Source: Thermodesulfobacteriota bacterium (GTDB taxonomy: Bacteria; Desulfobacterota; WTBG01; JAGOGO01). Taken from it: DNA of 64,000 bases. Where the stretch lies: the NCBI GenBank assembly GCA_026625185.1, contig CP113000.1:2043124-2107123 (forward strand), read 5' to 3'. This document shows, piece by piece, positions 7,512-53,867 of this stretch. The notes under the pieces are model-generated. The model did no database searches. It was not told the origin of the DNA and was given only the letters and a program-made list of their open reading frames with translations. The stretch's first letter is position 1. The number at the start of each line of letters is the position of its first letter. Position numbers and translations under genes: made by a program.

Positions 7512-9833
7512 ATGACTTTGATAAAGGATGCTTCACTCCCCATTGAACCAATAAAGCGGGCAAAGATTAGTGTGCGGGGAATTGTTCAGGGGGTGGGGTT
7601 TCGACCTTTTGTTTACCAGCTCGCCTCTAAACACGGTCTGAAAGGATGGGTGTGTAATACTTCTGGTGATGTAAAAATTGAAGTGGAAGGTTCGACTGAT
7701 TCTCTTCAATTATTTTTGGAGCAGCTTAAAACCAAGGCGCCGCCGCTCGCTCTGATTGAAGAAGTAAATCAACTTTATTTACCGCCCGATGGTTATCAGC
7801 GTTTTGAAATCCGAGAGAGCAATCCGGAAAAAGGTAAATACCAGCGCATTTCGCCGGATATCGCCACGTGCCCCTTGTGCCTGCAAGAAATACTAGACAA
7901 AAACGACCGGAGGTATAGCTATCCCTTTACCAACTGTACCAACTGTGGTCCCCGGTTTACTATTATCCAAGATATTCCTTATGATCGACCGGAGACTACG
8001 ATGCGAACATTTAAAATGTGCCCGGAATGTCAAAAGGAGTATGACAATCCTGTTGACCGGCGCTTTCACGCGCAACCCAATTGCTGTCCCACCTGCGGTC
8101 CGAAACTTGCAATCATTGATCAGGCCGGAAAGATGATTGCTTCTCAGGATCCGGTTCGTGATGTTTGCGTTTTACTGAAGCAGGGGAAGGTGCTTGCTTT
8201 AAAGGGGTTGGGCGGTTTTTTGCTGGCGTGTGACGCCACGAACGAACCGGCGGTAATCACTTTAAGACAAAGGAAAAAAAGACCCTTTAAACCTTTTGGG
8301 GTCATGATGGCTTCGCTTGAGGAGGTAAAGAAGTGTTGTTTGGTATCACCGGAGGAGGAGAAGCTTCTTTGCTCCACGAAAGCGCCCATCGTTTTGTTAA
8401 AACTTAAAAATAAAAGCGTGATCGCATCGTCAGTAGCTCCAAACCTAAACTACTTAGGCGTGATGCTACCGTACACGCCCCTTCATCATTTAGTGATGCA
8501 CGGGGTTTCATTGCCCCTGGTGATGACGAGCGGCAATCTTAGCGAGGAACCGATCGCCAAGGATAATGAGGAAGCGTTAAGGAGGCTGTCAGGAATTGCC
8601 GATTATTTTATTGTGCATAACCGGGATATTCATGTCCAGTTTGATGATAGTGTGACGATGGTCGAAAATAATAAACTCCAGGTCTTACGGCGAGCGCGAA
8701 GCTATGCTCCGGATCCGATCCGACTCCCTTTTCATGCTCAAGAAGTCTTAGCGTGCGGAGCGGAACTTAAAAATACTTTCTGTATCACCAAGGACGAGTA
8801 CGCTTTTATAAGCCAGCACATCGGCGACCTGGATAACCTTGAAACCTTTGGTCAATTTGAAATGGTGTTGGATCATTATAAAAAGCTTTTTCGATTAAAC
8901 CCCCGGATCATCGTCTGTGATCAACACCCCGATTATCTTTCCAGCCGGTATGCGCAAAAGCTTAAAACCGCGAATGATGATCTCAACCTAATTTCCGTCC
9001 AGCATCATCATGCTCACATTGTAAGCTGTGTTACTGAAAATAAAGTCGCGCCGCCGGTTTTAGGCGTTGCGTTTGATGGCACCGGGTACGGCGAAGATGG
9101 ATGCATCTGGGGAGGAGAGTTCCTTGTGGTTGATTATGGCAAATTTCAACGGCTCGGACACCTGGAATATATACCAATGCCGGGAGGGGAGAAGGCGATT
9201 AAAAAACCTTTTCGTATGGCCATAAGTTATCTTGCACAGCTCTCAGGCACACAAACCTTAAACCGACGGCTCGCATTTCTTAAAACCGTGGAGGAGAGGG
9301 AGTTGGAACTTATCAAAAAACAAATCGAAAAAGGAATCAACACCCCTTTAACCTCAAGTTGCGGTCGTTTGTTCGACGGCGTATCAGCTTTATTAAATAT
9401 CCGGAATGAGGTTGACTATGAAGGTCAAGCTGCGATAGAATTGGAAATGATTGCCGGTGAGGGGAAAGATACGGGGAAGAGATATCCTTTTGAAATTGGC
9501 GAAGAGAACGGAATAAAAATTGTGCGGCTTCAGAAACTTTTTGCGGCAATTCTTGAAGACGTTGATCATGGCGTTACTAAAACCGAGATATCGTCTTGCT
9601 TCCATCATTCAGTCGCCCACATGGTTGGCCGCATGTGCCAAAACCTTGCTCGAGATACAGGTATAAAAAAAATAGCGTTAAGTGGAGGGGTATTTCAAAA
9701 CCGACTACTTCTCAGGCTGACCTCTTTTTATCTTAAAAAAGCAGGGTTAAAAGTCATTATCCACCGGGAAGTCCCCACCAATGACGGGGGAATTTCCTTG
9801 GGCCAAGCAGTGATTGGTAATTTTATTGCTTAA
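7512..9833 (+). CDS. hypF: [NiFe]-hydrogenase maturation carbamoyltransferase HypF
   Basis: Acylphosphatase N-terminus (VRGIVQGVGFRPFVY), two CxxC-x18-CxxC zinc-finger pairs, a YrdC-like domain and a Kae1/HypF C-terminal domain. 773 aa. Confidence 0.9.
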   Translation: MTLIKDASLPIEPIKRAKISVRGIVQGVGFRPFVYQLASKHGLKGWVCNTSGDVKIEVEGSTDSLQLFLEQLKTKAPPLALIEEVNQLYLPPDGYQRFEIRESNPEKGKYQRISPDIATCPLCLQEILDKNDRRYSYPFTNCTNCGPRFTIIQDIPYDRPETTMRTFKMCPECQKEYDNPVDRRFHAQPNCCPTCGPKLAIIDQAGKMIASQDPVRDVCVLLKQGKVLALKGLGGFLLACDATNEPAVITLRQRKKRPFKPFGVMMASLEEVKKCCLVSPEEEKLLCSTKAPIVLLKLKNKSVIASSVAPNLNYLGVMLPYTPLHHLVMHGVSLPLVMTSGNLSEEPIAKDNEEALRRLSGIADYFIVHNRDIHVQFDDSVTMVENNKLQVLRRARSYAPDPIRLPFHAQEVLACGAELKNTFCITKDEYAFISQHIGDLDNLETFGQFEMVLDHYKKLFRLNPRIIVCDQHPDYLSSRYAQKLKTANDDLNLISVQHHHAHIVSCVTENKVAPPVLGVAFDGTGYGEDGCIWGGEFLVVDYGKFQRLGHLEYIPMPGGEKAIKKPFRMAISYLAQLSGTQTLNRRLAFLKTVEERELELIKKQIEKGINTPLTSSCGRLFDGVSALLNIRNEVDYEGQAAIELEMIAGEGKDTGKRYPFEIGEENGIKIVRLQKLFAAILEDVDHGVTKTEISSCFHHSVAHMVGRMCQNLARDTGIKKIALSGGVFQNRLLLRLTSFYLKKAGLKVIIHREVPTNDGGISLGQAVIGNFIA

Positions 9834-32593: not shown

Positions 32594-32774
32594 ACCTGTT
32601 TTGCAGTAAAGGATTAACCGAAAAAGGAATGAAGATAGAGGAGGTAAGATAAAAAAGAGGGAGGCTTCGTGTAAACGAGTGGGTTGATTTCATAAAACAA
32701 ACCCTTTGATCAAGCATGTCCTATGATCTGATCACTGGTTTAGAAGGACAGAGGATAGAACCTATCCTTCTCCC

Positions 32775-33175
32775 AGACAGTGTCATTCCCCGATTTAATC
32801 GGGGAATCCAGTTATTAACTCCTCATGCAAATCCTTCCAATTCGGATTTACCTTTTCAATAAAATCGATTTTCATGCGCGGTTATATTTTTTCAGTCTTT
32901 TCTCTCTTCTGATAGCATAAAATTGCTCATAATATATCAGCTTATCAACCCCATATCTTTCTGTAAATTATTCGACTAATTTATTCTTATGCTCCCATGC
33001 TTGCTTTATTAAGTTTGAAGTTACTCCTATATATAAAGTGCCATTCCGCTTGCTCTAAAATAGGTAGACATAAAAACCTTTTTCCATATAGCTCTGGATT
33101 ACCCGGTCAAGCCCGACAATGACTAATATCCTTATGCAGAATTACCCACTTGTTTACACGAAGATCCAAAATATA
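32775..33175 (+). repeat. Interspersed intergenic repeat, family 2, copy A. It is interrupted by an AT-rich insertion of about 204 bp at about 32878..33081.
   Basis: The flanks match 39566..39775. They include the 23-bp palindrome ATTCCCCGATTTAATCGGGGAAT, then CCAGTTATTAA..CAAATC(C/T)TTCCAATTCGGATTTACC(T/A)TTTCAATAAAATCGATTTTC, and after the insertion CATATAGCTCTGGATT...AATGACTAATATCC..TTACCCA(C/T)TTGTTTACACGAAGA. Confidence 0.5.
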
Positions 33176-33275
33176 AAGAAGACTACTTCCTGAACCCACC
33201 TGATTATCTCTTCGAAAAATCACAAATATCTTGACCCAATTTGTCTTATTTGGTAAATCAAAACCACACCAAATT

Positions 33276-33536
33276 GACGGCTTCGTAAAAAGTTCATCTG
33301 CGGCGTTCCGCTGCATCCCCTGCCCCGTTAAATGTTTGCTTCGAGAGGCAGAGAAGCTAACCTAAGGATTTCGGGTTCTGACTTACCGATCCCCAAAATT
33401 CATTATTTAACGGGGTGAATAATTGCGGCGTACAGGTAAGTAAGCCTCATTCCGTCGGATTTGCGCGCCTTGCATCTGAAGCTTTTTACTGTGCGTCTGA
33501 TTTTTGACTTTTTACGGATTCATCAAATTTCATAAA
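33276..33536 (+). repeat. Interspersed intergenic repeat, family 1, copy 2, upstream of ftsY. It carries an internal hairpin insertion of about 90 bp (CCCCGTTAAAT...ATTTAACGGGG) at about 33318..33410.
   Basis: Aligned by eye to 7283..7440. Confidence 0.5.
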
Positions 33537-33632
33537 AATATAAAAAGTAACGCCATGCTTTTGGCATGCTTGCACTAGTTTATTGAAAGAATGCTTCCAT
33601 GAGGCAATCGGCTTCATGACGCGGGAGGGTTA

Positions 33633-34655
33633 ATGGATAATAAATCGAAGTCAAAAGGTTTTTTGGGACGGTTTTCTTTTGGGAAAAAGGAGAACAATGC
33701 GGGAGAAAATAATAAAGAACATGACCAGGCCGGGAAGGAGAAGGCGGGTTTTTTTGAAAGGCTCAAATCAAGCCTCAGAAAAACTCATGAGATTCTGGTA
33801 ACTCCGGTTGATGAGCTGATTCTGGGCCGGAAAAAAATTGATGAAGATACTTTTGAAAGTCTTGAGGAAATTCTGCTTACCTCTGATGTGGGGCCGCAGA
33901 CGGCATTCAGTTTAATACAGAAAGTTCAGAAAAAGGTGGGCTATGGGGAATATGATAAAAAGAATCTCCTGCGGGAGTATTTAAAAGAAGAAATTCTTAC
34001 CATCCTGGCAGAGCGGCAGGATCCTCTCGATATTTCTCAGTCGAAACCCTTTGTCATCATGGCGATCGGGGTAAATGGATCTGGAAAGACCACCACCATT
34101 GCCAAGCTTGCTCATCAGATGCACTCTCAGGGAAAAAAAGTCCTTTTAGCGGCAGCAGACACCTTTCGGGCGGCAGGGATCGAACAGCTGGAGATATGGG
34201 GAGAAAGGGTGGGATGCGAAATGATAAAGCAGAAAAAAGGTTCCGACCCTTCAGCAGTTGCCTATGATGCGATCCATGCGGCCTTAGCCCGGAGTGTTGA
34301 TGTGCTGATTGTGGATACTGCGGGAAGGTTGCATACAAAAGTAAACCTGATGGAAGAACTCAAAAAGATAAAAAGGATTATGGGAAGGGAGTATCCGGGC
34401 TCTCCTCATGAGGTATTACTGGTGTTGGATTCTACTACCGGACAAAATGCGATTGCGCAAGCCACGATGTTTAAAGAAAACCTCGGCTACACGGGGATTG
34501 TGCTTACCAAACTCGATGGTTCGGCCAAGGGGGGGGTGATTGTAGGGATAAGTAATGAGCTTAAAATCCCCATCCGTTTTATCGGCATTGGGGAGAAGAT
34601 GGAAGATCTTCGGGAGTTTAATGCTCAGGAATTTGTGGAAGCGTTGTTTGAATAA
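33633..34655 (+). CDS. ftsY: Signal-recognition-particle receptor FtsY
   Basis: SRP54-type GTPase: GVNGSGKTTT, DTAGR, TKLDG. Acidic and basic N-terminal A-domain. Confidence 0.9.
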   Translation: MDNKSKSKGFLGRFSFGKKENNAGENNKEHDQAGKEKAGFFERLKSSLRKTHEILVTPVDELILGRKKIDEDTFESLEEILLTSDVGPQTAFSLIQKVQKKVGYGEYDKKNLLREYLKEEILTILAERQDPLDISQSKPFVIMAIGVNGSGKTTTIAKLAHQMHSQGKKVLLAAADTFRAAGIEQLEIWGERVGCEMIKQKKGSDPSAVAYDAIHAALARSVDVLIVDTAGRLHTKVNLMEELKKIKRIMGREYPGSPHEVLLVLDSTTGQNAIAQATMFKENLGYTGIVLTKLDGSAKGGVIVGISNELKIPIRFIGIGEKMEDLREFNAQEFVEALFE

Positions 34656-34657
34656 AC

Positions 34658-34760
34658 TTGACGGCTTCGTCAACCCCCTTAGAAAATTTTCTAATGGAAT
34701 TAAATGCCCCGGGTGAAATCTTTCTAACGGGGCGTCTGATTTTCGATTTTTCGCTGAAGA
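34658..34760 (+). repeat. Diverged partial copy of repeat family 1 immediately after the ftsY stop
   Basis: The 5' end shares GACGGCTTCGT and the 3' end shares CGTCTGATTTTCGA with the other copies. It begins with the palindrome TTGACGGCTTCGTCAA. Confidence 0.3.
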
Positions 34761-34923
34761 AGAGAAGTTAAATTAACTTTTTTTTCCTCTTGGATAATGG
34801 TATCTTTAAAAAATAAGGGTTTGGTAGGAGAGGTCAGGTGCAAGAGTCAGGGGCTAGGGGGATTATGGTAAGACGGTAAACTGATCTCAGGTAACTCACC
34901 TTTTTCGCAAAGGAGAGGAAAAC

Positions 34924-36354
34924 ATGAAGCCTAACGAAATACCTGAAAAAAACATCCGTCAGCCGGTGGTGGCCGGGTCATTTTACACTGCTGGTCCAAA
35001 AGCTTTAGCTCAAGAAATTAAGGGTTATTTTAATAATGTGCCGGCCGGTCAAATTATCTCGGAAAAACCGCTCGGCCTTATTTCTCCCCATGCAGGGTAC
35101 CTGTATTCAGGACAGGTTGCGGCTTTTGCTTATAAGCAAATAGAGGGAAGGCACTATGAAACGATCATGATACTCGCGCCGAGCCACCAAGTCTATTTTC
35201 CAGGAGCATCGGTTGATACAAAAGATGGATATCGCACTCCTTTAGGAGTTGTGCCGGTGGCAAAAGAGATCGTTAACCACATTTTTGGCAAAAGTCCCTT
35301 GATCACTCATTATCCTCAGGCTCACATCCAAGAGCATTCTTTAGAGGTTCAACTTCCTTTTCTACAAACGGTTCTCAAGGATTTTAAGCTCGTTCCGATA
35401 GTTATGGGAGACCAAGCTATTGAGACATGTGAGGCGGTTGCCCGAGCCTTAGCTGATGTTGTTAAAAACTATGATGTTTTGGTTGTTGCCAGCTCCGACC
35501 TTTCTCATTATCACCACCTAAATATAGCGCAAGATTTAGATCAGAAAGTAATAGACCGGATCAACGCTTTTGACTTCCAGGGGTTAGCGTCAGATTTGAA
35601 GCTTCATAAGACTGAGGCTTGCGGCGGTGGCCCAATCATCACCGCGTTACTTATTGCCCGACACCTCGGAGCAAACAAGGCCAAGGTAGTGAAGTATGCC
35701 AACTCCGGAGATGTCAGTGGAGACTATAGCGGTGTTGTGGGGTACGCTGCCGGGGTTATATACAAAGAAGACAAAAAGGGTGCCAAAAAACCGGGGGTGG
35801 GAAAAGTGGGTGTTGACCTGGGGTTGAATGAAAAAGAAAAAGAGCTTCTCCACCGGATCGTAAAGGAAACGATCAAAAACCATTTGGATGGCAAACCTAT
35901 CCCTGCTTTTCAAGTTGATTCCTCAACCTTACAAGAGCCGCGCGGCGCTTTTGTCTCGCTTCACAAGGAAGGTATGCTTCGGGGATGTATCGGGCATATC
36001 CGTGCTGACCATCCTCTCCATGAAACTATAAAAGACATGGCGGTTGCGGCAGCTTTTGAAGATCCCCGTTTTCCTCCCCTCAGTCGGAAAGAGTTTGACA
36101 AAATAGATATTGAAATTTCTGTGCTGACCCCTTTTAAAAGAATTACGGACATTAATGAAATTGAGGTGGGCCAACATGGGCTTTATATGGTAAAGGGTTT
36201 CTATTCCGGTCTTCTTCTCCCACAGGTGGCCACAGAATATGGGTGGGACAGGGTTACGTTTTTGGAACATACCTGCAATAAAGCGGGTCTATCCAAAGAT
36301 GCGTGGAAGGACAAGGACACGGAAATTTATCTTTTTTCAGCCGATGTATTTTAG
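34924..36354 (+). CDS. Fusion protein: Memo-like domain (AmmeMemoRadiSam system protein B) plus a C-terminal AMMECR1 domain (system protein A)
   Basis: The N-terminal ~275 aa is Memo1-like (PVVAGSFY, ISPHAGYLYSG, ILAPSH, HSLEVQLPFLQ). The C-terminal ~180 aa has the AMMECR1 signature RGAFVSLHKEGMLRGCIGHI. Confidence 0.7.
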   Translation: MKPNEIPEKNIRQPVVAGSFYTAGPKALAQEIKGYFNNVPAGQIISEKPLGLISPHAGYLYSGQVAAFAYKQIEGRHYETIMILAPSHQVYFPGASVDTKDGYRTPLGVVPVAKEIVNHIFGKSPLITHYPQAHIQEHSLEVQLPFLQTVLKDFKLVPIVMGDQAIETCEAVARALADVVKNYDVLVVASSDLSHYHHLNIAQDLDQKVIDRINAFDFQGLASDLKLHKTEACGGGPIITALLIARHLGANKAKVVKYANSGDVSGDYSGVVGYAAGVIYKEDKKGAKKPGVGKVGVDLGLNEKEKELLHRIVKETIKNHLDGKPIPAFQVDSSTLQEPRGAFVSLHKEGMLRGCIGHIRADHPLHETIKDMAVAAAFEDPRFPPLSRKEFDKIDIEISVLTPFKRITDINEIEVGQHGLYMVKGFYSGLLLPQVATEYGWDRVTFLEHTCNKAGLSKDAWKDKDTEIYLFSADVF

Positions 36355-36393
36355 GCTGGATATCACCCTCACGGCTTTAGGGGTGTAAGATTT

Positions 36394-37623
36394 ATGGAAT
36401 ATCCAAAGCTCAGAAATATTGAAGCGTTTCCCGTGAAAATGCAAGGGCAGGACCTCATCTGCTTTCGCGATCCTCAGAGGATTACCGAAAGCATTGTCTT
36501 CCTTCCCCGGAGCGCTTATTTTATAGTCAGCCTTTTTGACGGCGGACATTCTATCCTGGATATCCAAGCAAAGTATATGCGGATTTTTGGGGAACTCATT
36601 TACCGTGACCAGATCATTGAGGTAATGGAAAAGCTGGATCAGTCTTTACTGTTGGATAGTGATCGCTTTCGTGAATACCGAAATAAATTAGAAGAGGAAT
36701 CTTTTCAAACATCTATCCGTAAACCCATGCTTGCCGGAGGCGGGTATGAAAGTGTTCCTGAAAAATTATGCATGCAGATTGAGAGCTTTTATTTTTTGGA
36801 AGGAGGACCAGGACAAGGTCCGCACCCTCAGGTTTCAGTAAATGGCCTCCTGGGATTCATTGCGCCTCATATCGATTATATGCGGGGAGGTCACTGCTAT
36901 GCCTGGGCTTATAAGGAGGTAGCGGAACATTCCGACCATGATGTTTTTATACTTTTAGGCACCTCCCATCTGCCGACCCAAAAGTATTTTGTGCTTACCA
37001 AAAAAGACTTTGAAACCCCGTTTGGCATTCTCAAAACCGACCGGGATATTTTAAGCCGGCTGGAAAATGACGTGGGGAGAAATTTTTTTATTGATGAATT
37101 TGTTCATCGCAGCGAACACTCCCTCGAATTGCAAACAGTTTATCTTCACAATCTGTTTGGAAAGAACCCCAATCTGCGTATTGTCCCCATTCTCTGCGGA
37201 TCTTTTTATGAAATTATTTCCCGTGGTGGTCATCCCCGCGAAAGCGAGGAGCTCAATGGTTTTATTGAGGCTTTGGGCAAGACAATTTGCGACGATGGCC
37301 GGAAGATATGCCTTGTGGCCAGTGCCGACCTGGCGCATGTAGGGCGACAGTTTGGACATCAGTTTGTGGTATCTGAGTCTGTTATGGCGGATATTAAGAG
37401 GAAAGACATGGAGATGTTGAATTGGGTTCTAAAGGGTGATGCTGATGGATTTTTCAATTACATCTTAAAAGAACGTGATCAGCGGAATATCTGTGGGCTT
37501 CCACCGATTTATGCTCTTCTGCGTCTCCTCGAAAACAGTGAAGGAAAACTCCTCAATTATAGCCAATGGAAGGACCCTGCCGGCAATGGCGCGGTTACTT
37601 TTGCCAGTATTGTTTTTCATTAG
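36394..37623 (+). CDS. Second Memo-like (MEMO1 family) protein with a ~140-aa N-terminal extension of unknown function
   Basis: FIAPHIDYMRGG, ILLGTSH, HSLELQTVYL, ASADLAHVG. The Memo dioxygenase-like motif order is present. Confidence 0.6.
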   Translation: MEYPKLRNIEAFPVKMQGQDLICFRDPQRITESIVFLPRSAYFIVSLFDGGHSILDIQAKYMRIFGELIYRDQIIEVMEKLDQSLLLDSDRFREYRNKLEEESFQTSIRKPMLAGGGYESVPEKLCMQIESFYFLEGGPGQGPHPQVSVNGLLGFIAPHIDYMRGGHCYAWAYKEVAEHSDHDVFILLGTSHLPTQKYFVLTKKDFETPFGILKTDRDILSRLENDVGRNFFIDEFVHRSEHSLELQTVYLHNLFGKNPNLRIVPILCGSFYEIISRGGHPRESEELNGFIEALGKTICDDGRKICLVASADLAHVGRQFGHQFVVSESVMADIKRKDMEMLNWVLKGDADGFFNYILKERDQRNICGLPPIYALLRLLENSEGKLLNYSQWKDPAGNGAVTFASIVFH

Positions 37624-37688
37624 AGAAGGTTTAACCGGCGCAAGCAAGAAAATGTAAGGGTGTATTTGTCTGCCATGGGAGAAGTTTT

Positions 37689-39011
37689 TCAGAGACAGCG
37701 GCGTTGCTCTGCTTTAAATATCTTATAATATGAGGCCATATCTTTACCGACCACTATTTTGACCTTAATATTTCGGTTTTTAAACCCAGTAACCTTAACC
37801 ACATCCTGGCGTTGGGGTATTTGTTTAGCCAAAGAGTAAGCATCCTGAAGATACCCGTCACAATAATAAATGGTTGTTTTCAGGTTATTGAACCGGGGTT
37901 CGTTTTTCAAAGAGGAAACTTTAAAACCTTTTTTGCCTAAATAAAAGGCCACACTTCGGGCAAAATGCCTAATCCCATTTCCATTCGAGACTTCTATACC
38001 TTTTGGCACCACCGGTAGCTTCTGTAAAAGCGGACGGTTATCGGATAAGGTTTTTGCTTTTATAGCTGAAGATGACGGCCGGGTTGATGCTCCAATATTT
38101 TTAGAAAACAGTACGTCTTTAGTCTTGTCTTTAGGCTTTCCACAGTACTTTTTCTGTTCCGAGAGGAGGTTGCCTGATGGAGAAGCCACAAGTTTTTCTT
38201 CATGGATACTTTTATCAATCGGCGCATCTTGCGAAAGCTTTTCTTCATTATTCTCATTATTATTATTCGGAGGAAAATTCTTCGCCACTAAAGTTTTATT
38301 GGGGTAAAGATTTGGGTTTTGATTAAACAGGTCAGCCATGTAACGACGCGCTTTTTCTTCATTGCCGGCGCTTTTAAACTCGTTAAACGCAAGCTCATAT
38401 TTCCCTTGCTGGCCGTAAGCCAGACCCAGGTTATTATGGTATTGCCGGTTTTCTTTATCGAGGGCGACTGCTTGCTGAAAGGCGTTAACCGCGGAATCGA
38501 GTTTCTTTTGGAGCAGGTAAGAGTACCCGAGATTATTGTAGATATAAGCAAGGTTTGGGTTTAAACGCAAAGCCCCTTCATAGGCGTTAACTGCCCGGGG
38601 AAACTCTCCCAATAAATCGTATGAGACTCCGAGCCCATTGTAGGCCTTCACATATCCCGGATCATTCTGAAGGGTTTTTTTAAACTCTTTGATGGCGAGC
38701 TGGTGTTTTTTTCTTTCCTGGTAGAAACAAGCGAGGCGGTAATGCGACTCGGCATCATTGTTGGTGGGTTTTATGGTGCGCGTGAATTCTTCTATCTTTT
38801 TATCGGTGAGAGCATACTGGGATTTTTCCTTGTCCTGGAACGGCAACCAGCTTACCATCTTTTTCCATGGAGAACACCCGGCAAGAAAACACAACAAAAA
38901 GACCCCGATAGCGCCTCTTAACATTGCAGAGTTTATTTTTTTTCTCATTTCTCCCTCCTTTGCCAAAAAGCGAAAAGCTTTTTCCCTAATCCCCGGGTTC
39001 CACCCAGACAA
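37689..39011 (-). CDS. TPR-repeat lipoprotein with a C-terminal LytR_C-like domain
   Basis: Lipobox LLCFLAGCS. Six or more TPR units (AIKEFKKTLQNDPGYVKAYNGLGVSY...). The C-terminus (GNGIRHFARSVAFYLGKKGFKV..TTIYYCDG) is LytR_C-like. Confidence 0.55.
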   Translation of the reverse strand: MSGWNPGIREKAFRFLAKEGEMRKKINSAMLRGAIGVFLLCFLAGCSPWKKMVSWLPFQDKEKSQYALTDKKIEEFTRTIKPTNNDAESHYRLACFYQERKKHQLAIKEFKKTLQNDPGYVKAYNGLGVSYDLLGEFPRAVNAYEGALRLNPNLAYIYNNLGYSYLLQKKLDSAVNAFQQAVALDKENRQYHNNLGLAYGQQGKYELAFNEFKSAGNEEKARRYMADLFNQNPNLYPNKTLVAKNFPPNNNNENNEEKLSQDAPIDKSIHEEKLVASPSGNLLSEQKKYCGKPKDKTKDVLFSKNIGASTRPSSSAIKAKTLSDNRPLLQKLPVVPKGIEVSNGNGIRHFARSVAFYLGKKGFKVSSLKNEPRFNNLKTTIYYCDGYLQDAYSLAKQIPQRQDVVKVTGFKNRNIKVKIVVGKDMASYYKIFKAEQRRCL

Positions 39012-39228
39012 TATGGTTTTTGTTTATCATGACCACCCTCTCCGGGGAATCCCGAAAAACCACATCAACCAATACGACGAATTGTTCACAGGGAGTTTTA
39101 AAAAGGTCCGATATTCTTTTATTATGGCCTAAATTTATTTTTCCCGCAAAGGTTGAGCCATCTGTAGTTCGGATAGTAACTCCTCGGTACTCCCTCATCC
39201 AAGTATCGGAATCTTTAAATTCTTCCAC
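38986..39228 (-). CDS. Hypothetical 80-aa protein
   Basis: Its 26-bp end overlaps the start of the TPR gene. No recognisable family, so it may be spurious. Confidence 0.25.
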   Translation of the reverse strand: MEEFKDSDTWMREYRGVTIRTTDGSTFAGKINLGHNKRISDLFKTPCEQFVVLVDVVFRDSPERVVMINKNHIVWVEPGD

Positions 39229-39565
39229 CTCCTCGCCCCCTTTCTGATGAATACCTCCAGCGAATAATTTAAAAAAACAGTCTAAACCCTAACCCCCTAT
39301 AACCAAAAGGTTAAATGATCCTAAGAACAAATCCGGGCGTCTTGCCGGGCTTTTTTGCAATAAGAGAATCAGTGCTTCACAGAATGAGCAACGAGTCGAA
39401 AGGAATGAAGGTAAAATTTAATTTTTTCTCATTATATTACTAATTTCATATAAATAAAAGCTTTTTTTAACCGATATTCTAGGAAGTTTGGAGAAAAAGT
39501 TTGTCTTTACCCTTTTATTGACCAATTTAAGTAATTTTGCTAATAAAAATAGTAATTTCCCGCAC

Positions 39566-39775
39566 CACATAGTGTCATTTCCCGATTCAATCGGGGAATC
39601 CAGTTATTAAACCCCCATACAAATCTTTCCAATTCGGATTTACCATTTCAATAAAATCGATTTTCCATATAGCTCTGGATTCCGAGCCTGTCCCGTACTT
39701 AATACGGGAGTCAAGCCGGAGAATGACTAATATCCCTTAATCTGTATTACCCATTTGTTTACACGAAGACCCATT
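39566..39775 (+). repeat. Interspersed intergenic repeat, family 2, copy B (contiguous form)
   Basis: Matches the flanks of 32775..33175. It contains ATTTCCCGATTCAATCGGGGAAT and an extra hairpin CCCGTACTTAATACGGG. Confidence 0.5.
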
Positions 39776-39893
39776 ATTTGAAAAAGCTATAAGCAGTAAG
39801 TTTATTATTCCCCTTTTATTTGTCGTATTTTTTTGTTTTTTCACACCCCAAAAACCTCTCTCCTTGCGCCCAGTGCACGCTTTGCACAACCCC

Positions 39894-39975
39894 CTCGCTC
39901 GTATAACGGCCAACAGAACACGGTAAACGGATTACGGTCCACAGTTAACGGAGAACTGACAACGGATAACTATCT
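39894..39975 (+). repeat. Degenerate heptanucleotide array 1, about 11 x NAACGGN (TAACGGC CAACAGA ACACGGT AAACGGA TTACGGT CCACAGT TAACGGA GAACTGA CAACGGA TAAC)
   Basis: 7-bp periodicity read directly in the sequence. It begins CTCGTATAAC like arrays 4 and 6. Confidence 0.6.
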
Positions 39976-40204
39976 ATTTAGACTCAAAGCATTTTTGGGT
40001 AAAAATATACCCAGGCAGAATGAAATTTTGAGAAGTATTATGGAAAGATTATTGAAATACTAAAAAAAAATAAATGAGTTAGGGATTGGAAAATTTAGGG
40101 ATTGAAAAAATTCAATGAGAATGAAAAAAATATTTTTATTGCGGAATTGCGGAAATTCGTATATTCTGTTATTATGGAGGTATGAATTTTTGCAGGAGAA
40201 AATT

Positions 40205-40456
40205 ATGAAAGAAAACGTCATGGTATCCGGCCGCGGACAAATTACCCTGCCGGCGGCGATTCGAAAGCGCTTAGGGATTAAGCCCGGAGGTATGGTGGTT
40301 TTAGAAGAAAAAAACGGCGAGGTAGTGTTACGCCCCGGAGTGGTAGTGGAAATTGAGACCTACACCGATGCCGACATCGCCCAATGGGATGAAGAGGACC
40401 GATTAGACAAAACTGAACGCGCAGCACTACTCAAACGCCTGGGTAAAAAGACTTGA
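40205..40456 (+). CDS. SpoVT/AbrB-type antitoxin (VapB/MazE-like)
   Basis: GQITLPAAIRKRLGIKPGGMVVLEE. AGGAG RBS. Overlaps the PIN toxin gene by 4 nt. The track ORF is extended upstream. The operator-like direct repeat TTGCGGAATTGCGGAA lies upstream. Confidence 0.7.
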   Translation: MKENVMVSGRGQITLPAAIRKRLGIKPGGMVVLEEKNGEVVLRPGVVVEIETYTDADIAQWDEEDRLDKTERAALLKRLGKKT

Positions 40457-40857
40457 AACGATTGTTTCTTGACGCCAATGTGCTTTTTACCGCAGCACAA
40501 AACCCAGCAGGCAAGGCAGCACTGGTGATTGAATATGGAGGAAAGGGATATTGGGAGATCGTGACCAATACTCTCGCCGTTGAAGAAGCCCGAAGAAATT
40601 TTGCCTTAAAATTTCCGGATTGTTTGACGAAATTTGAAATGCTTTTGTCGGATGTCTTGGTTTTGCCTTCCCAGATAGAAGGGTCATGTTCTTTTTCCCT
40701 TTCTCCTCAAGACCGAATAATCTTTCTTTCTGCGCTCACATGCAAGGCAACTCACCTGCTAACCGGCGATATCAAACATTTCGGCCCGTTTATAAATAAG
40801 CCGAAGATTACATCAGGAATAATTATTCAGACCGTTCCCGAATTCCTGCGGGGATAA
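40453..40857 (+). CDS. PIN-domain toxin (VapC family)
   Basis: N-terminal LFLDANVL with Asp6 and downstream acidic residues (LTGD). 134 aa. Confidence 0.7.
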   Translation: MKRLFLDANVLFTAAQNPAGKAALVIEYGGKGYWEIVTNTLAVEEARRNFALKFPDCLTKFEMLLSDVLVLPSQIEGSCSFSLSPQDRIIFLSALTCKATHLLTGDIKHFGPFINKPKITSGIIIQTVPEFLRG

Positions 40858-40900: not shown

Positions 40901-40966
40901 GTCAATGGCCAACGGTGAACTGACCACATAACGGCCAACCCTGAACGGAAAACGGATAACGGATCA
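40901..40966 (+). repeat. Degenerate heptanucleotide array 2 (...TAACGGC CAACCCT GAACGGA AAACGGA TAACGGA TCAAAGG)
   Basis: Same 7-bp periodicity and same orientation as array 1. Immediately downstream of vapC. Confidence 0.55.
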
Positions 40967-41192
40967 AAGGAATTTGCTTAATAATTGAGGCTTTATTTTA
41001 ACCCCGGAGGTGTAAATAGTTAGAAAAGTCTTGATAATTATATAACTTATTGATATAAAAGGAAATATTTATCAAATTGGGATTCAATGCAGGCTTGGAA
41101 ATGGTGAAGTGGAAAAAATATCGGGTGTAATGAAATTTTTTGTGTTTGTATTATTGGTACCACGACAAGTTTGATGAACTGACAACAAAGAT

Positions 41193-45221: not shown

Positions 45222-45228
45222 TTAGTTA

Positions 45229-45292
45229 GCCGTTATCTGTTGACCGTTTCCCGTTGGCTGTTATCCGTTCACCGTTGTTCGTTTAATTGAGT
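45229..45292 (-). repeat. Degenerate heptanucleotide array 3. It is in CCGTT orientation on the plus strand, so it reads NAACGGN on the minus strand.
   Basis: TTAGCCGTTATCTGTTGACCGTTTCCCGTTGGCTGTTATCCGTTCACCGTTGTTCGTTTAA. It lies between the microprotein stop and the start of the downstream membrane-protein gene. Confidence 0.6.
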
Positions 45293-45534: not shown

Positions 45535-45592
45535 GTATAACCGATAACGGCGAACGTTGAACGGTAAACGGAAAACGGTCAACGGACAACAA
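45535..45592 (+). repeat. Degenerate heptanucleotide array 4 (TAACGGC GAACGTT GAACGGT AAACGGA AAACGGT CAACGGA CAAC). It abuts the stop of the 45599..47122 gene.
   Basis: 7-bp periodicity. Inverted relative to array 3. Confidence 0.6.
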
Positions 45593-47139: not shown

Positions 47140-47200
47140 ATCCGTTAACCGTTATTTGTTGACCGTTTTCCGTTGGCAGTTATCGGTTCATCGTTGTTCG
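47140..47200 (-). repeat. Degenerate heptanucleotide array 5 (CCGTT orientation on the plus strand)
   Basis: TCCGTTAACCGTTATTTGTTGACCGTTTTCCGTTGGCAGTTATCGGTTCATCGTTGTTCG. It shares GTTGACCGTTTYCCGTT with array 3. Confidence 0.6.
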
Positions 47201-47299
47201 TTTAAGTGAGTTTTTAAGGGCGCTTATTTTTGCTGATATTTTATACAATTGTTCGATTAACTCACTGAAGGATTTATGATCAATATATTTTTGTTTCAT
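47180..47299 (-). CDS. Paralogous 39-aa microprotein (MKQKYIDHKSFSELIEQLYKISAKISALKNSLKRTTMNR)
   Basis: See 45261..45380. Coordinates are accurate to about 1 nt. Confidence 0.35.
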   Translation of the reverse strand: MKQKYIDHKSFSELIEQLYKISAKISALKNSLKRTTMNR

Positions 47300-47467
47300 C
47301 GAAATCTCTAAAATTTTCCTTCATTGTTTTTCCTCTCGTCCCCATTTTTTTACCCCTCACCTAAATCCTCTCCCCGGCGGGGAGAGGAAGGAAAGGACGG
47401 AACACATTCATATGAGGAGCCAAGAGCAAGAAGAAAATTTAATTGCATCTATTAATTCCTTCCCTCC

Positions 47468-47540
47468 TATAACCGTTAACGGTGAATGGTTAACAGAAAA
47501 CGGTAAACAGATAACGGTTAACGGAGAACAAAGAACGTTT
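47468..47540 (+). repeat. Degenerate heptanucleotide array 6 (TAACCGT TAACGGT GAATGGT TAACAGA AAACGGT AAACAGA TAACGGT TAACGGA GAACAAA GAACG). It abuts the stop of the GT2 gene.
   Basis: 7-bp periodicity. Begins CTCCTATAACCG like arrays 1 and 4. Confidence 0.6.
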
Positions 47541-48283
47541 TATATTCTGTATTTTCCGGTTAAATAACGTGTCCGTATTCTCACCAAATCAATCAACATA
47601 CTAAAAGAATCCTTCACCATATGAACCCGGGAGTCGGGAGAATTAATCCATTTTATGGGAACCTCCTTTATCCGGTATCCGTTTTTGTCTGCTATAAAAA
47701 GCAGTTCCACATCAAAACCAAATCCCCAAACAGTCTGTTTTGCAAACAGTACGTTGGCTGCCTCTTTTTTGAAGAGTTTGAAACCGCACTGGGTATCCTT
47801 GATCCCGGATAACGTGAGAAGCTGTACCAGCTTGTTGAAGGTCTTTCCCATAAACTCCCTTGGCCATGGCTGCCTCTCCAAAATATCCGACCCGGGCAAT
47901 GCCCGGGATCCGATAGCAATATCATAGCCTTGGTCGAGCCAGTCTGCCAGTTTATCAACTTCCTGGATAGGAGTGGATAGATCAGCATCGGAAAAAAGAA
48001 TAATCCTTCCTTGGGAATGCAATACCCCGGCTCTTACCGAATATCCTTTCCCACGATTGACCTTATTTCCCAATAACCGGACAGAGGAAAACTCCCCGGC
48101 AAATTTTCTGATCACCTTGCGAGTGTTGTCACTGCTTCCATCATCCACCACAATGATCTCAGAGCGATAATCCCTGGTCAGTAAAAATTCGTGGATTTTT
48201 TGTAAGGTGGCGCCGATTCTTTCGGCTTCATTAAATGCAGGGATAACCACCGAAAGATGGATATTATTCAAGGATTCAACCAC
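47540..48283 (-). CDS. Family-2 glycosyltransferase (GtrB / polyprenyl-phosphate sugar synthase-like)
   Basis: LSVVIPAFNEAERIGATL...IIVVDDGSSDNT and a DxD region (SDADLST). 247 aa. Confidence 0.8.
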   Translation of the reverse strand: MVESLNNIHLSVVIPAFNEAERIGATLQKIHEFLLTRDYRSEIIVVDDGSSDNTRKVIRKFAGEFSSVRLLGNKVNRGKGYSVRAGVLHSQGRIILFSDADLSTPIQEVDKLADWLDQGYDIAIGSRALPGSDILERQPWPREFMGKTFNKLVQLLTLSGIKDTQCGFKLFKKEAANVLFAKQTVWGFGFDVELLFIADKNGYRIKEVPIKWINSPDSRVHMVKDSFSMLIDLVRIRTRYLTGKYRI

Positions 48284-48694: not shown

Positions 48695-49663
48695 CTAACG
48701 TGTCTCCTTATAATTTTTTGCCCCATCACTCCTTTTAACCTGCGATATAATGTGTCATTGATAATATCACGGCTATGGCCATAAATACATCCCTGTTTGG
48801 AGGTGGAGCGACCGGGTGAAAAAATGCTATAGTAAAAAGTTGTTGATATTCTTAAAAAAATTACAATTAAAATTATATAAAATAACATAGTGGAAATTAT
48901 GAATAAAAAATAAAAGCTAATGTTAATTAGCCATTCAATTCTTTTATCGCATGCCGATAATTGTCCATAGTGTGCCAAAAATTTTCTTATTTTTTTAAAC
49001 AATTTTCTGCAAATTTTTTATTTGGGCAATTTTAAAAATAAATTTTGCAAAATAGTAAAGAAAAAAATCTAATATTTTACTTGAAATTAAACTTATTACG
49101 TATTATTATTTCAAAAAATTTCTTTTTTCAAAAAAATGGCTTTATCTTTTGGCATTATAGTTGCTTGGAAGTTGAATAAGTTCAGACAATATTGATCCTT
49201 AGGAAAAAGCCACACCAGTGGTGAGGCTGGGCCGGAAAGCCACGGGTCTTAATTAATCGAAAGATATCCGGGTTGCCAAAAAAGGTAACCGGCTATTTTT
49301 TGGTATTAATCCCCCTCACCTCAATCCTCTCCCCGGCGGGGAGAGGATTGAAAGATTTGAAGTCTATCCTGATGGGGAGAGGAAGGTAAAGTAAAAAATC
49401 CTCCAAAAGGGAGGGAAAGGCAACGTAGTAAAAGCTCTCCTCAAAGGAAGAGAAAGGGACTAAATAAGCAAGTAAATACTTTTTTGTAGTTATATAGATT
49501 AAATACCCTATTTACTAACTTGCTTCATTATGAAATAATTTTTTCAAATAACTTTTTTGAAAGGAGGAAAAGCCAAGAAAGAACATCAATAAATCATTAG
49601 AAACAAATGGGTTAAAATTTTTTTAAAACCTAATTGTTATTTTTTTATTAAAGGAGGTAACAG

Positions 49664-51696: not shown

Positions 51697-51977
51697 CACC
51701 CTCACCCCGGCCCTCTCCCTCAAGGGAGAGGGAGTTTTGAATTGATTCTCTCCCTCAAGGGAGAGGGAGTTTTGAATTGATTCTCTCCCTCAAGGGAGAG
51801 TGGGGTGGTTGCTTCTCTCTCCATTAAGGGAAAAAATGTTTTTTGGTTTCTTCTCTCCGTTAAAGGGGAGATAGAAATTTTGGTTTGATTCTCTCCCTTA
51901 AGGGAGAAGGAAAATTTGGAGTGGATTTTGAAACGTTACCTCCTCTCCCCTGCGGGGAGAGGATTGAGGTGAGGGGG
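51697..51977 (+). repeat. Tandem array of about 7 hairpin units (about 36 bp each: CTCTCCCTCAAGGGAGAG plus GGAGTTTTGAATTGATT). It degenerates distally and ends with an inverted copy of the CCTCACC..GGGGAGAGGA element.
   Basis: The first three units are near-identical. Read directly in the sequence between cpaB and cpaC. Confidence 0.6.
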
Positions 51978-53667: not shown

Positions 53668-53867
53668 ACAAATTAATGAAATCGGGCACAATTTCCCAGG
53701 GGTATTTTTCAGGCAACACAAAACCTGTCTGATTTTTGACTTCAAAATCAGCAGGTATTTTATCCCCACAAATTAATGAAATCGGGCACAATTTCCCAGG
53801 GGTATTTTTCAGGCAACACAAAACCTGTCTGATTTTTGACTTCAAAATCAGCAGGTATTTTATCCCC
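53668..53867 (+). repeat. Perfect 2 x 100-bp tandem direct duplication. Each unit contains the hairpin CTGATTTTTGACTTCAAAATCAG.
   Basis: Units 53668..53767 and 53768..53867 appear identical by eye. They are preceded by the partial related motif CGGCGACAAATT (twice). Confidence 0.7.

What the first reader, a model, noticed from the sequence alone, without database searches (positions are those of the whole stretch)
32775..39775. Repeat family 2: a roughly 210-bp element with a 23-bp perfect palindrome, one copy split by a 204-bp AT-rich insertion
39566..39775 is contiguous. 32775..33175 is the same element interrupted at about 32878..33081 by a 204-bp AT-rich insertion. Both contain ATTCCCCGAT(T/-)TAATCGGGGAAT (a near-perfect inverted repeat), then CCAGTTATTAA, then TTCCAATTCGGATTTACC..TTCAATAAAATCGATTTTC | CATATAGCTCTGGATT ... 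AATGACTAATATCC ... TTGTTTACACGAAGA.

Copy B has an additional small hairpin (CCCGTACTTAATACGGG). The termini are not inverted repeats of each other, so this is not a classic IS or MITE. The palindrome could be a protein-binding operator, or the whole element could be a structured RNA. The nested insertion shows the family has been a target, or a vehicle, for further insertions.

Together with family 1, the 32.6-33.6-kb intergenic kilobase consists almost entirely of nested repeats.
Basis: seen in the sequence. Interest (0 to 1): 0.55.

Follow-up and report, generated by a model that had tools for sequence, protein, structure and literature searches.

The report
Relics of a hairpin-cutting nuclease gene
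The two repeats are dead copies of a small, recently described gene cassette, a GIY-YIG single-strand DNA nuclease (Ssn) flanked by the DNA hairpins it recognises; one copy is a full-length pseudogene, the other lost its gene body by deletion, so the finding is real but belongs to a known kind.

Summary
The repeat is real. Its direction of change was misread. On the minus strand, copy A (true extent 32664-33164) is a complete cassette. It has a 21-bp terminal inverted repeat, a decayed 5' hairpin and a 101-codon GIY-YIG nuclease pseudogene. That pseudogene carries two stop codons, a 1-bp frameshift and a 12-bp deletion. A perfect 3' hairpin contains its stop codon, followed by a 96-bp tail and the second inverted repeat.

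The "204-bp AT-rich insertion" is the body of that gene. Copy B (39551-39769) is the derived form: it lost the gene body by a deletion between two ATGGAAAA octamers.

The repaired protein is 84-85% identical to intact 101-aa proteins of sister genomes and 49% identical to the Neisseria ssnA orthologue. Both palindromes, and nothing else in 64 kb, match the published Ssn-related motif (SRM).

This is therefore the Ssn/SRM system of Chenal et al. 2025, whose hairpins are the "CGTC-tagged REPs" of Di Nocera et al. 2013.

Findings beyond that paper are modest:
- at least 8 unrelated insertion contexts exist in this clade;
- presence varies between close relatives;
- defective copies are dispersed;
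- there is a lineage-specific outer inverted repeat;
- the protein C-terminus co-varies with the hairpin stem.

How the cassette spreads is unresolved.

The parts
32664..33164 (-). Copy A: full-length, pseudogenised SRM-ssn-SRM cassette (501 bp)
   Evidence: Collinear over 522-541 bp with the intact element of L004 (87% identity). It replaces about 380 bp of a response-regulator gene that relatives still have.
33144..33164 (-). Left (5') terminal inverted repeat TCTTCGTGTAAACAAGTGGGT
   Evidence: 19 of 21 match with 32664-32684.
33094..33124 (-). 5' hairpin module (SRM), decayed: AGTCATTGTCGGGCTTGACCGGGTAATCCAG
   Evidence: Aligns with the GTCATTCTCCGGCTTGACCGGGGAATCCAG module of the intact copies. 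It no longer folds (-1.8 kcal/mol, z +0.48) and does not match the SRM regex.
32795..33087 (-). ssn pseudogene (GIY-YIG, Ssn family). Lesions: TCG>TAG at codon 11, GGA>TAA at codon 40, a 12-bp deletion of codons 57-60, and a 1-bp deletion in the Trp76 codon
   Evidence: Translations. Pfam PF01541, E 2.6e-7. 93.9% DNA identity to the intact L004 ORF. 84-85% amino-acid identity to P0001-P0005. 49% to the Neisseria ssnA orthologue, E 2e-29.
32781..32811 (+). 3' hairpin module (SRM) TGTCATTCCCCGATTTAATCGGGGAATCCAG. It reads as a forward SRM on the + strand, and the TAA stop of the ORF lies in its loop (32795-32797)
   Evidence: Matches the published SRM regex. Fold. Sequence.
32685..32780 (-). 3' tail between the hairpin and the right inverted repeat
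   Evidence: Shared with L004, L106 and L107. Absent from copy B, L010, L108 and L114.
32664..32684 (+). Right terminal inverted repeat (GCTTCGTGTAAACGAGTGGGT on the + strand)
   Evidence: (I8).
39551..39769 (-). Copy B: internally deleted cassette, short form without tail or right inverted repeat
39749..39769 (-). Left terminal repeat of copy B, TCTTCGTGTAAACAAATGGGT
39675..39728 (-). 5' hairpin module of copy B. A 26-nt segment (39684-39709, containing CCCGTA-TTAAG-TACGGG) replaces 3 nt of the stem and re-forms a longer hairpin
   Evidence: Comparison with L010. Fold -11.6 kcal/mol, z -3.3.
39587..39668 (-). Remnant of the ssn ORF: ATGGAAAA joined directly to codon 77 onward. The deletion junction is at the octamer 39661-39668
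   Evidence: The intact L004 has ATGGAAAA both at the start codon (3001) and at 3225. That predicts a 224-bp deletion between direct repeats.
39573..39603 (+). 3' hairpin module (SRM) of copy B, TGTCATTTCCCGATTCAATCGGGGAATCCAG
   Evidence: Matches the SRM regex. Fold.
39551..39572 (-). Short right-end extension (ACTATGTGGTGCGGGAAATTAC) shared by all short-form copies
   Evidence: Alignment A3. L114.

Best explanation
Both repeats are relics of SRM-ssn-SRM cassettes.

What an intact cassette looks like. It is seen in sister genomes (L004, L010, L107, L114). It encodes a 101-aa single-domain GIY-YIG nuclease of the Ssn family. The gene is bracketed by two inverted copies of a roughly 31-nt module: a (C/T)GTCAT tag, an 8-10 bp stem, a 3-5 nt loop, the complementary stem, and ATCCAG. 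This module is the 'Ssn-related motif', equivalent to a CGTC-tagged REP. The 3' module overlaps the last codons and the stop codon of the gene.

How it works, by homology with the purified Neisseria and Wolbachia enzymes (not tested here). The protein binds the hairpin only when the DNA is single-stranded, for example during replication, transformation or conjugation. It cuts a few nucleotides 5' of the tag, on that strand only. With the orientation seen here, the two cuts fall at the outer edges of the cassette on opposite strands.

State in this window. Neither copy can make the enzyme. Copy A was inactivated recently by two nonsense changes, a frameshift and a 12-bp deletion. Copy B lost 224 bp of coding sequence by slippage or recombination between two ATGGAAAA octamers. 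Only the two 3' hairpins remain intact. They would be cut only if an intact paralogue exists elsewhere in the genome.

Shown: the anatomy, the homology, the motif match, stem covariation, dispersal to unrelated sites, and presence/absence among relatives.
Inferred: the biochemical activity, and the idea that the nuclease is what spreads the cassette.
For: ORF and domain.

Homologues. There are 6894 homologues. The best are intact 101-aa proteins at 84-85% identity. The ORF is 93.9% identical in DNA to L004, with discrete lesions.

Link to Neisseria. P0003 gives a single tblastn hit in N. gonorrhoeae: 57.8% identity, E 2e-27. That gene is flanked by NTS repeats. The repaired window protein is 49% identical to it, E 2e-29.

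Motif. The published SRM regex hits the window exactly twice, at the two palindromes, against 0.22 expected. In 80 homologous loci from many phyla, 52 have an SRM abutting the gene in this orientation.

Hairpin covariation. Among 78 distinct SRMs, 98.4% of stem positions are paired and 5 of 8 pairs show compensatory changes. Slid controls give 16-53%. C-terminal residue pairs are F/E 42, L/Q 34, S/G 5, C/A 2, with only 2 non-complementary.

Dispersal. Eight unrelated contexts share only the element.

Presence/absence. Relatives carry an intact response-regulator gene where copy A sits. ORM2 carries an ORF-less SRM doublet at that place.

Literature: PMC11893778 and PMC3733652.
Against: - No biochemical test was possible.
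- CDD cd10448 membership could not be computed, and NCBIfam gave no hit.
- The 5' hairpins of both window copies do not match the SRM regex; one is decayed and one is disrupted.
- The window is not SRM-rich: 2 per 64 kb.
- The repeat unit extends about 25 nt (short form) or 117 nt (long form) beyond the predicted cut site, so the ends of the copied unit are not simply the nuclease cut sites.
- Both comparisons of a filled site with an unfilled one show replacement of host DNA (380 bp and 83 bp) rather than clean insertion, and no target-site duplication.
- In Neisseria the flanking repeats have the opposite orientation.
Confidence: 0.88

Rival explanations
1. The mobile unit is a roughly 500-bp non-autonomous inverted-repeat element (a MITE). 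An unrelated transposase supplied in trans moves it, and the ssn cassette is only a passenger.
For: 21-bp terminal inverted repeats bound the long form in three unrelated contexts: window copy A, L004 and L106. Defective copies that share the same 29-bp lesion sit at two different loci, L106 and L108, which suggests mobilisation in trans.
Against: - No target-site duplication in any of the three full-length copies.
- Short forms without the right repeat are equally dispersed: copy B, L010, L108, L114.
- The outer repeat is confined to this clade, whereas the SRM-gene-SRM layout is found across phyla.
- No cognate transposase was found.
Confidence: 0.12
2. The cassette is a domesticated host system, for example restriction of incoming single-stranded DNA as in Neisseria, and not a selfish mobile element. 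The copies here are decayed paralogues.
For: In N. meningitidis SsnA restricts transformation by NTS-flanked DNA, and the gene is single-copy (PMC11893778). There is a single hit in N. gonorrhoeae.
Against: In this clade the gene is multi-copy: two intact copies lie on one 112-kb contig. Copies lie at unrelated sites, inside or replacing other genes, and decay quickly. One sits between the methylase and helicase (ResIII) genes of a restriction-modification-like gene pair. Proteins are 58-80% identical across distant phyla. These are the marks of a selfish, horizontally moving element.
Confidence: 0.2
3. The two copies arose by one local segmental duplication, and the palindrome is a regulatory operator.
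For: Only two copies in the window, 6.8 kb apart and on the same strand.
Against: - Flanks are unrelated.
- The copies differ by 10-20% and in architecture (long against short form).
- Six further contexts exist elsewhere.
- A third copy is inferred in the same genome from the DeoC C-terminus.
- Synteny with relatives ends at 37627, so copy B lies in different, lineage-specific DNA.
Confidence: 0.02
4. The element is a structured non-coding RNA or an intrinsic terminator.
For: A stable hairpin sits at the 3' end of an ORF.
Against: - No Rfam match at gathering threshold or at E<=1.
- No T-run, and the terminator scan does not flag the hairpin.
- Sequence between the hairpins is conserved as codons.
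- SsnA does not bind RNA (PMC11893778).
Confidence: 0.03

Closest known systems
Ssn nucleases with Ssn-related motifs (NTS-ssnA-NTS of Neisseria; Chenal et al., Nat Commun 2025, PMC11893778)
   Same: A single-domain GIY-YIG protein of about 100 aa, 49-58% identical to the Neisseria orthologue. The gene is bracketed by oriented hairpin repeats that match the published SRM regex. Distribution is phylum-wide.
   Different: - Both copies here are dead.
- The repeats face the opposite way from Neisseria: tag-outward, with the 3' repeat overlapping the stop codon.
- The genome region is not repeat-rich.
- This clade adds a 21-bp outer inverted repeat and a 96-bp tail.
- The gene is multi-copy and variably present. 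The paper raised mobility only as a hypothesis.
CGTC-tagged REPs (Di Nocera et al. 2013, PMC3733652), including Neisseria dRS3/NIME and Rickettsia RPE-4/-6
   Same: TGTC/CGTC tag, stem beginning AT, short loop, CCA tail, and head-to-head dimers (for example ORM2 L109).
   Different: Those were described as high-copy extragenic repeats 'lacking a dedicated transposase'. Here they occur only as the flanks of a nuclease gene or its remnants.
REP/RAYT (REPIN) systems and IS200/IS605
   Same: A small nuclease gene flanked by inverted hairpin repeats recognised as single-stranded DNA. No target-site duplication. Hairpin doublets act as non-autonomous derivatives.
   Different: The enzyme fold is different (HUH Y1 transposase against GIY-YIG), the tag is different (GTAG), and transposition chemistry is demonstrated for those systems but not for Ssn.
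GIY-YIG homing endonucleases (I-TevI type) and free-standing homing genes
   Same: The GIY-YIG catalytic domain and selfish-looking dispersal.
   Different: Those enzymes carry a separate DNA-binding domain, cut duplex DNA, and live in introns or phage genomes. This protein is the bare domain. Only one weak phage hit was found (38.6%).
UPF0213 / YhbQ small GIY-YIG proteins (PDB 1ZG2)
   Same: Roughly 100-aa single-domain GIY-YIG proteins.
   Different: Only distantly related (E 2.7e-4). No association with hairpin repeats is known to me.

Membership tests
Ssn / SRM system (Chenal et al. 2025) | Single-domain GIY-YIG protein of about 94-105 aa | tested here: met
   Pfam PF01541 is the only domain. 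Intact relatives are 101-105 aa.
Ssn / SRM system (Chenal et al. 2025) | Homology to Neisseria SsnA (the paper's criterion: tblastn E < 1e-10) | tested here: met
   P0003 against the N. gonorrhoeae chromosome: E 2e-27, 57.8%. Repaired window protein: E 2e-29, 49%. That the Neisseria locus is ssnA is inferred from its being the single hit and from its NTS flanks.
Ssn / SRM system (Chenal et al. 2025) | Assignment to CDD cd10448 (GIY-YIG_unchar_3) | not testable with these tools
   No CDD search was available. NCBIfam gave no hit.
Ssn / SRM system (Chenal et al. 2025) | Gene flanked by SRM hairpins matching HGTCWYN(0-2)YYVSBRHN(0-5)WNVSBRGN(0-2)RNCYNB | tested here: met
   The 3' module of both copies matches: 2 hits in 64 kb against 0.22 expected. 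The 5' modules are recognisable by alignment but fail the regex, one decayed and one disrupted.
Ssn / SRM system (Chenal et al. 2025) | Hairpin maintained by selection (co-varying stem) | tested here: met
   (98.4% paired, 5 of 8 pairs compensatory). (codon-complementary C-terminal residues).
Ssn / SRM system (Chenal et al. 2025) | Site-specific cleavage of single-stranded DNA 5' of the hairpin; none on duplex DNA, RNA or the reverse strand | not testable with these tools
   Biochemistry only.
Ssn / SRM system (Chenal et al. 2025) | Functional (intact) nuclease gene | tested here: not met
   Copy A has 2 stops, a frameshift and a 12-bp deletion. Copy B lacks codons 3-75. These are relics of members, not working members.
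CGTC-tagged REP (Di Nocera et al. 2013) | CGTC/TGTC tag, 8-9 bp stem starting AT, 4-5 nt loop, CCA tail | tested here: met
   TGTC-ATTCCCCGAT-TTA-ATCGGGGAAT-CCAG. Here the stem is 10 bp and the loop 3 nt, slightly outside the published ranges.
CGTC-tagged REP (Di Nocera et al. 2013) | Abundant, dispersed, extragenic copies in the genome | tested here: inconclusive
   Only 2 per 64 kb, both attached to ssn remnants.
REP/RAYT (REPIN) | GTAG-tagged hairpins flanking an HUH Y1 transposase gene | tested here: not met
   The tag is TGTC and the enclosed gene is GIY-YIG.
Classic IS / MITE | Terminal inverted repeats plus target-site duplication plus a DDE-type transposase (or derivation from one) | tested here: not met
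   Inverted repeats are present in the long form (19 of 21). There is no target duplication in 3 full-length copies and no transposase ORF.
GIY-YIG homing endonuclease | Nuclease domain fused to a DNA-binding domain; intron or phage location | tested here: not met
   Single domain. Chromosomal intergenic sites. One weak phage hit.

The most novel reading that the evidence does not exclude
The SRM-ssn-SRM cassette may be an autonomous mobile element of a kind not yet demonstrated in prokaryotes. In this reading a bare GIY-YIG single-strand nuclease, rather than a DDE, HUH, serine or tyrosine enzyme, copies its own gene and its hairpin doublets into new sites through a single-stranded intermediate. 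That would make it the long-missing mobilising enzyme of the CGTC-tagged REPs (dRS3, RPE).

The data from this clade point that way:
- at least 8 unrelated contexts;
- variable presence among genomes about 10% diverged;
- intact, pseudogenised, internally deleted and ORF-less forms;
- the same defective copy at two loci.

The data also show odd features: no target duplication, and host DNA replaced at both sites that could be compared.
Probability: 0.35. Interest if true: 0.65.

Novelty: new member of a known kind. Interest (0 to 1): 0.3.

Why it matters
For annotating this genome, the finding turns an "unexplained repeat with a nested insertion" into two dead Ssn cassettes. It also explains why the ntrC-ftsY spacer is 1 kb long: a response-regulator gene was replaced by the cassette, and a separate MITE landed 111 bp away.

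More broadly, the Ssn family was described only in 2025, and whether it is mobile is still open. This Thermodesulfobacteriota/ORM2 clade holds several young copies in different states of decay and with variable presence between close relatives. The organisms grow in enrichment cultures that have been sequenced many times. That makes the clade a practical place to test whether the nuclease moves its own cassette.

The strict codon-complementary covariation of the protein's last residues (F/E, L/Q, S/G, C/A) is a clear case of a DNA hairpin dictating protein sequence.

Tried and rejected
- An exact-pattern scan of the GTDB species representatives for the palindrome plus ORF end found nothing. 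The source species is not represented there.
- NCBIfam gave no hit.
- Rfam gave nothing at the element, either at gathering threshold or at E<=1.
- Promoter and terminator scans showed nothing at the hairpins.
- Literature searches with COG2827, YhbQ, 'terminal inverted repeats' and raw repeat sequence led nowhere. The link came from combining GIY-YIG with dRS3/CGTC.
- The supplementary data of the Ssn paper are not held, so the N. meningitidis SsnA sequence could not be taken from it. A gonococcal chromosome mislabelled as a plasmid served instead.
- An empty-site test for copy B was impossible, because synteny with relatives ends at 37627.
- The search for target-site duplications and sharp element ends was inconclusive. 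No duplication was found, and an AAATAA motif recurs 2-4 nt outside the left repeat in six copies.
- The 'unfilled' DeoC allele (L116) may itself hold a ghost of an older copy, so it is not a clean empty site.
- Rejected readings: REP/RAYT, DDE-type IS or MITE, homing endonuclease, riboswitch or small RNA, terminator, and local duplication. Reasons are in the membership table and the rival explanations.

Full report
**1. The observation**

- 32773-32873 matches 39565-39665 at 90% (101 bp, E 8e-35).
- 33106-33181 matches 39710-39786 at 82%.
- 33070-33100 matches 39651-39681 at 90%.

No other copy lies in the 64-kb window. The palindrome is perfect in copy A and has one mismatch in copy B. As single-stranded DNA they fold at -10.1 kcal/mol (z -4.95) and -6.3 kcal/mol (z -2.67). 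Copy A has about 211 bp that copy B lacks. Copy B has a 26-nt segment containing the small hairpin CCCGTACTTAATACGGG.

**2. What the extra segment is**

Read on the minus strand, copy A is an open reading frame interrupted by stops. It reads MEKGFYVYLF*SKRNGTLYIGVTSNLIKQAWEHKNKLVE*FTERYGVDKLIYYEQFYAIRREKRLKKYNRA*, and after a 1-nt shift KIDFIEKVNPNWKDLHEELITGFPD*.

With the stops masked, it matches the Pfam GIY-YIG catalytic domain (PF01541, E 2.6e-7, above the curated cut-off).

A search of the large protein collection returned 6894 homologues. The best five are intact 101-aa "putative endonucleases", 84-85% identical.

At DNA level the copy A frame is 93.9% identical to the intact gene of locus L004. 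It differs by four discrete lesions:
- TCG>TAG at codon 11;
- GGA>TAA at codon 40;
- a 12-bp in-frame deletion;
- a 1-bp deletion in the Trp76 codon.

The "204-bp AT-rich insertion" is therefore the body of a recently inactivated gene.

Copy B joins ATGGAAAA directly to codon 77. In the intact gene the octamer ATGGAAAA occurs both at the start codon and 224 bp downstream (L004 3001 and 3225). Copy B is therefore a deletion between direct repeats. It is not the uninterrupted ancestral form.

**3. Anatomy of the whole element**

Intact relatives were fetched from sister organisms: the benzene-degrading ORM2/BDM cultures and related metagenomes. Aligned with the two window copies, they show a common plan in gene orientation:
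- a left terminal repeat TCTTCGTGTAAACGAsTGGGT;
- about 20 nt later, a hairpin module GTCAT-stem-loop-stem-ATCCAG;
- 6 nt further on, the ATG and 101 codons;
- a second hairpin module in inverted orientation, CTGGAT-stem-loop-stem-ATGAC, whose loop contains the TAA stop.

A short form ends about 25 nt after that (copy B, L010, L108, L114). A long form continues with a 96-bp tail and an inverted copy of the terminal repeat (copy A, L004, L106; partly L107).

Copy A is therefore 32664-33164, 110 bp longer than reported. Its ends are inverted repeats (19 of 21). Its 5' hairpin has decayed. In copy B a 26-nt insertion has rebuilt the 5' hairpin into a longer one.

**4. The pattern is general**

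A profile scan of one genome per species found at least 596 loci. The best 80 span Desulfobacterota, Planctomycetota, Patescibacteria, Cyanobacteria, Chloroflexota, and Alpha-, Beta- and Gammaproteobacteria, at 58-80% protein identity.

A simple hairpin finder showed the same bracket in most of them: GTCAT-hairpin-ATCCAG before the gene and its inverse after it. The stem differs between loci.

On 78 distinct 28-nt modules:
- 98.4% of stem positions pair;
- five of eight pairs show compensatory double changes;
- sliding the partner by 1-3 columns drops pairing to 16-53%.

Because the 3' hairpin is coding, the stem shows up in the protein. Among the top 120 homologues the residue pairs at the two stem positions are F/E (42), L/Q (34), S/G (5) and C/A (2). 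These correspond to TTC/GAA, TTG/CAA, TCC/GGA and TGC/GCA. Only two pairs are non-complementary.

**5. Identification**

Two papers explain this.

Di Nocera et al. 2013 (PMC3733652) defined "CGTC-tagged REPs":
- tag CGTC or TGTC;
- 8-9 bp stem beginning AT;
- 4-5 nt loop and a CCA tail;
- mostly head-to-head dimers.

The class includes Neisseria dRS3 and Rickettsia RPE-4/-6. The authors noted that these repeats "apparently lack a dedicated transposase".

Chenal et al. 2025 (PMC11893778) reported the following:
- such repeats (NTS, generalised as SRM) flank a small single-domain GIY-YIG gene, ssnA, across bacteria;
- purified SsnA from three Neisseria species and from Wolbachia binds the hairpin on single-stranded DNA;
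- it cuts upstream of the hairpin, and does not cut duplex DNA, RNA or the reverse strand;
- in N. meningitidis it restricts transformation by NTS-flanked DNA.

They remarked that NTS-ssnA-NTS looks like an insertion sequence and proposed domestication, without showing mobility.

Their degenerate SRM pattern hits this window exactly twice, at 32781-32811 and 39573-39603, against 0.22 hits expected from shuffles. In the 80 loci, 52 have a regex-matching SRM abutting the gene in the orientation seen here, and 17 have one on both sides.

P0003 finds one place in the N. gonorrhoeae chromosome (57.8% identity, E 2e-27). That gene is flanked by canonical NTS repeats. The repaired window protein aligns to it at 49% identity, E 2e-29.

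Membership in the Ssn/SRM kind is thus met on every feature I could test. Exceptions: both window genes are dead, CDD assignment could not be tested, and biochemistry could not be tested.

**6. Context and history**

The window belongs to a Thermodesulfobacteriota genome with a 3.3-Mb contig.

*The ntrC-ftsY spacer.* In relatives whose coding flanks are about 90% identical, this spacer holds an intact 143-aa response-regulator gene (L096, L102, L103) or a decayed one (L098-L101).
- In the window, about 380 bp of that gene are replaced by the 501-bp cassette.
- In ORM2/BDM the 5' half of the same gene is replaced by an ORF-less head-to-head SRM doublet.
It too is absent from all relatives. The spacer therefore contains two adjacent insertions, not nested ones.

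*Copy B.* It lies in lineage-specific DNA. Synteny with relatives stops at 37627.

*Other copies.* The element occurs in at least eight unrelated contexts, which share nothing but the element: window A and B, L004, L010, L106, L107, L108 and L114.
- Two intact copies lie on one 112-kb contig.
- L106 and L108 share the same 29-bp lesion in the ORF at different loci.
- L106 also carries a roughly 130-bp MITE inside the ORF.
- The DeoC-family protein of the window's own genome (P0162) ends in LILKKCG. These are the seven codons contributed by the element's left end in filled alleles, whereas unfilled relatives end KNKKAK or similar. The genome therefore very probably holds a third copy. This is inferred; I did not see the DNA.

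**7. Mechanism: shown and inferred**

Shown:
- the hairpin is under selection as a nucleic-acid structure;
- it is physically coupled to the nuclease gene;
- the cassette has been copied to many sites and decays fast.

Inferred from the characterised homologues: the protein binds the extruded hairpin on single-stranded DNA and nicks a few nucleotides 5' of the tag. On the + strand of the window that would be just left of 32781 and of 39573.

With the tags facing outward, the two nicks would bracket the cassette on opposite strands. This is a plausible basis for copying. However, the evidence does not fit a simple cut-at-the-hairpin model:
- homology between copies runs 25-117 nt beyond the predicted cut;
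- there is no target-site duplication;
- in both comparisons of a filled site with an unfilled one, host DNA (380 bp and 83 bp) was replaced rather than split;
- the unfilled DeoC spacer may itself be a ghost of an older copy.

I therefore commit to "relics of Ssn cassettes" with high confidence. I give only moderate probability to "self-mobilising by the nuclease".

**8. Verdict**

This is a real, correctly located repeat family whose polarity was misread. It belongs to a known, very recently described kind. The details added here are of interest mainly to people working on Ssn/REP biology: multi-copy and variably present cassettes, an outer inverted repeat, deletion derivatives, and codon-level covariation.

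Noticed in passing
It has imperfect 18-bp inverted ends (GACGGCTTCGTAAAAAGT...) and a 5-bp AAATT target duplication. It is absent from all relatives at this site. Its end also occurs in ORM2 (L106 2900-2951).
   Followed up: partly
window 32594-33632 compared with L096 1848-2500: Relatives carry a 143-aa single-domain response-regulator gene between ntrC and ftsY. It is gone in the window, decayed in L098-L101, and half replaced in ORM2. The gene seems dispensable, and the site is a recurrent landing place.
   Followed up: yes
window 39903-39970, 40928-40974, 45544-45590, 47469-47543; inverted at 45225-45276 and 47145-47202: Arrays of AACGG-containing repeats spaced 7 nt apart, in several intergenic regions of the 40-48 kb membrane/glycosyltransferase gene cluster. 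They may be binding sites for a regulator.
   Followed up: no
window 49199-49280 (+): c-di-GMP-I riboswitch aptamer (Rfam RF01051, 56.6 bits).
   Followed up: no
window 53668-53867: Perfect 100-bp tandem duplication.
   Followed up: no
window 51700-51911; also 47353-47395, 49312-49354, 51928-51970: Tandem 35-bp units, each carrying the hairpin CTCTCCCTCAAGGGAGAGGGA, and a related dispersed hairpin CCTCTCCCCGGCGGGGAGAGG. This is a different palindromic repeat family.
   Followed up: no
window 40115-40857 (+): Two small overlapping ORFs beside copy B look like an AbrB/SpoVT-type antitoxin plus a PIN-domain toxin. This was judged by eye from the translations, without a family search.
   Followed up: no
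L109 4030-4121 and L097 16-88 (ORM2/BDM): An ORF-less head-to-head SRM doublet. One strain has a 21-nt insertion in the hairpin loop. The doublet is flanked by another hairpin family (CCCCGCAGCAAGCTGCGGGG).
   Followed up: partly
L106 about 1690-1960; L108 about 8400-8460: A roughly 130-bp MITE (ends AAATTGAGCGATTCTT) is inserted inside an ssn ORF in L106. A 29-bp insert at an identical ORF position is shared by L106 and L108, which lie in unrelated contexts.
   Followed up: partly
L114 2920-3340: An intact ssn cassette sits between an N6_N4 methyltransferase gene and a ResIII helicase gene, apparently inside a type III restriction-modification-like operon.
   Followed up: no
L004 3549-4871: A DDE_3 transposase fragment and a 263-aa Y1_Tnp (IS200/RAYT-type) gene lie 250-770 bp downstream of an intact ssn cassette. 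This is possibly just a mobile-element-rich region.
   Followed up: no
L113 594-873 (N. gonorrhoeae NZ_CP119142.1, a chromosome filed as a plasmid): The ssnA orthologue is out of frame with its apparent ATG in this strain, with one extra G after codon 2. The gonococcal gene may be a pseudogene or may start differently.
   Followed up: no
P0001-P0120 (homologues of the window pseudogene): The last residues of the protein co-vary as codon complements of the hairpin stem: GFP..VGE 42, GLP..VGQ 34, GSP..GG 5, GCP..GA 2, and only 2 exceptions.
   Followed up: yes
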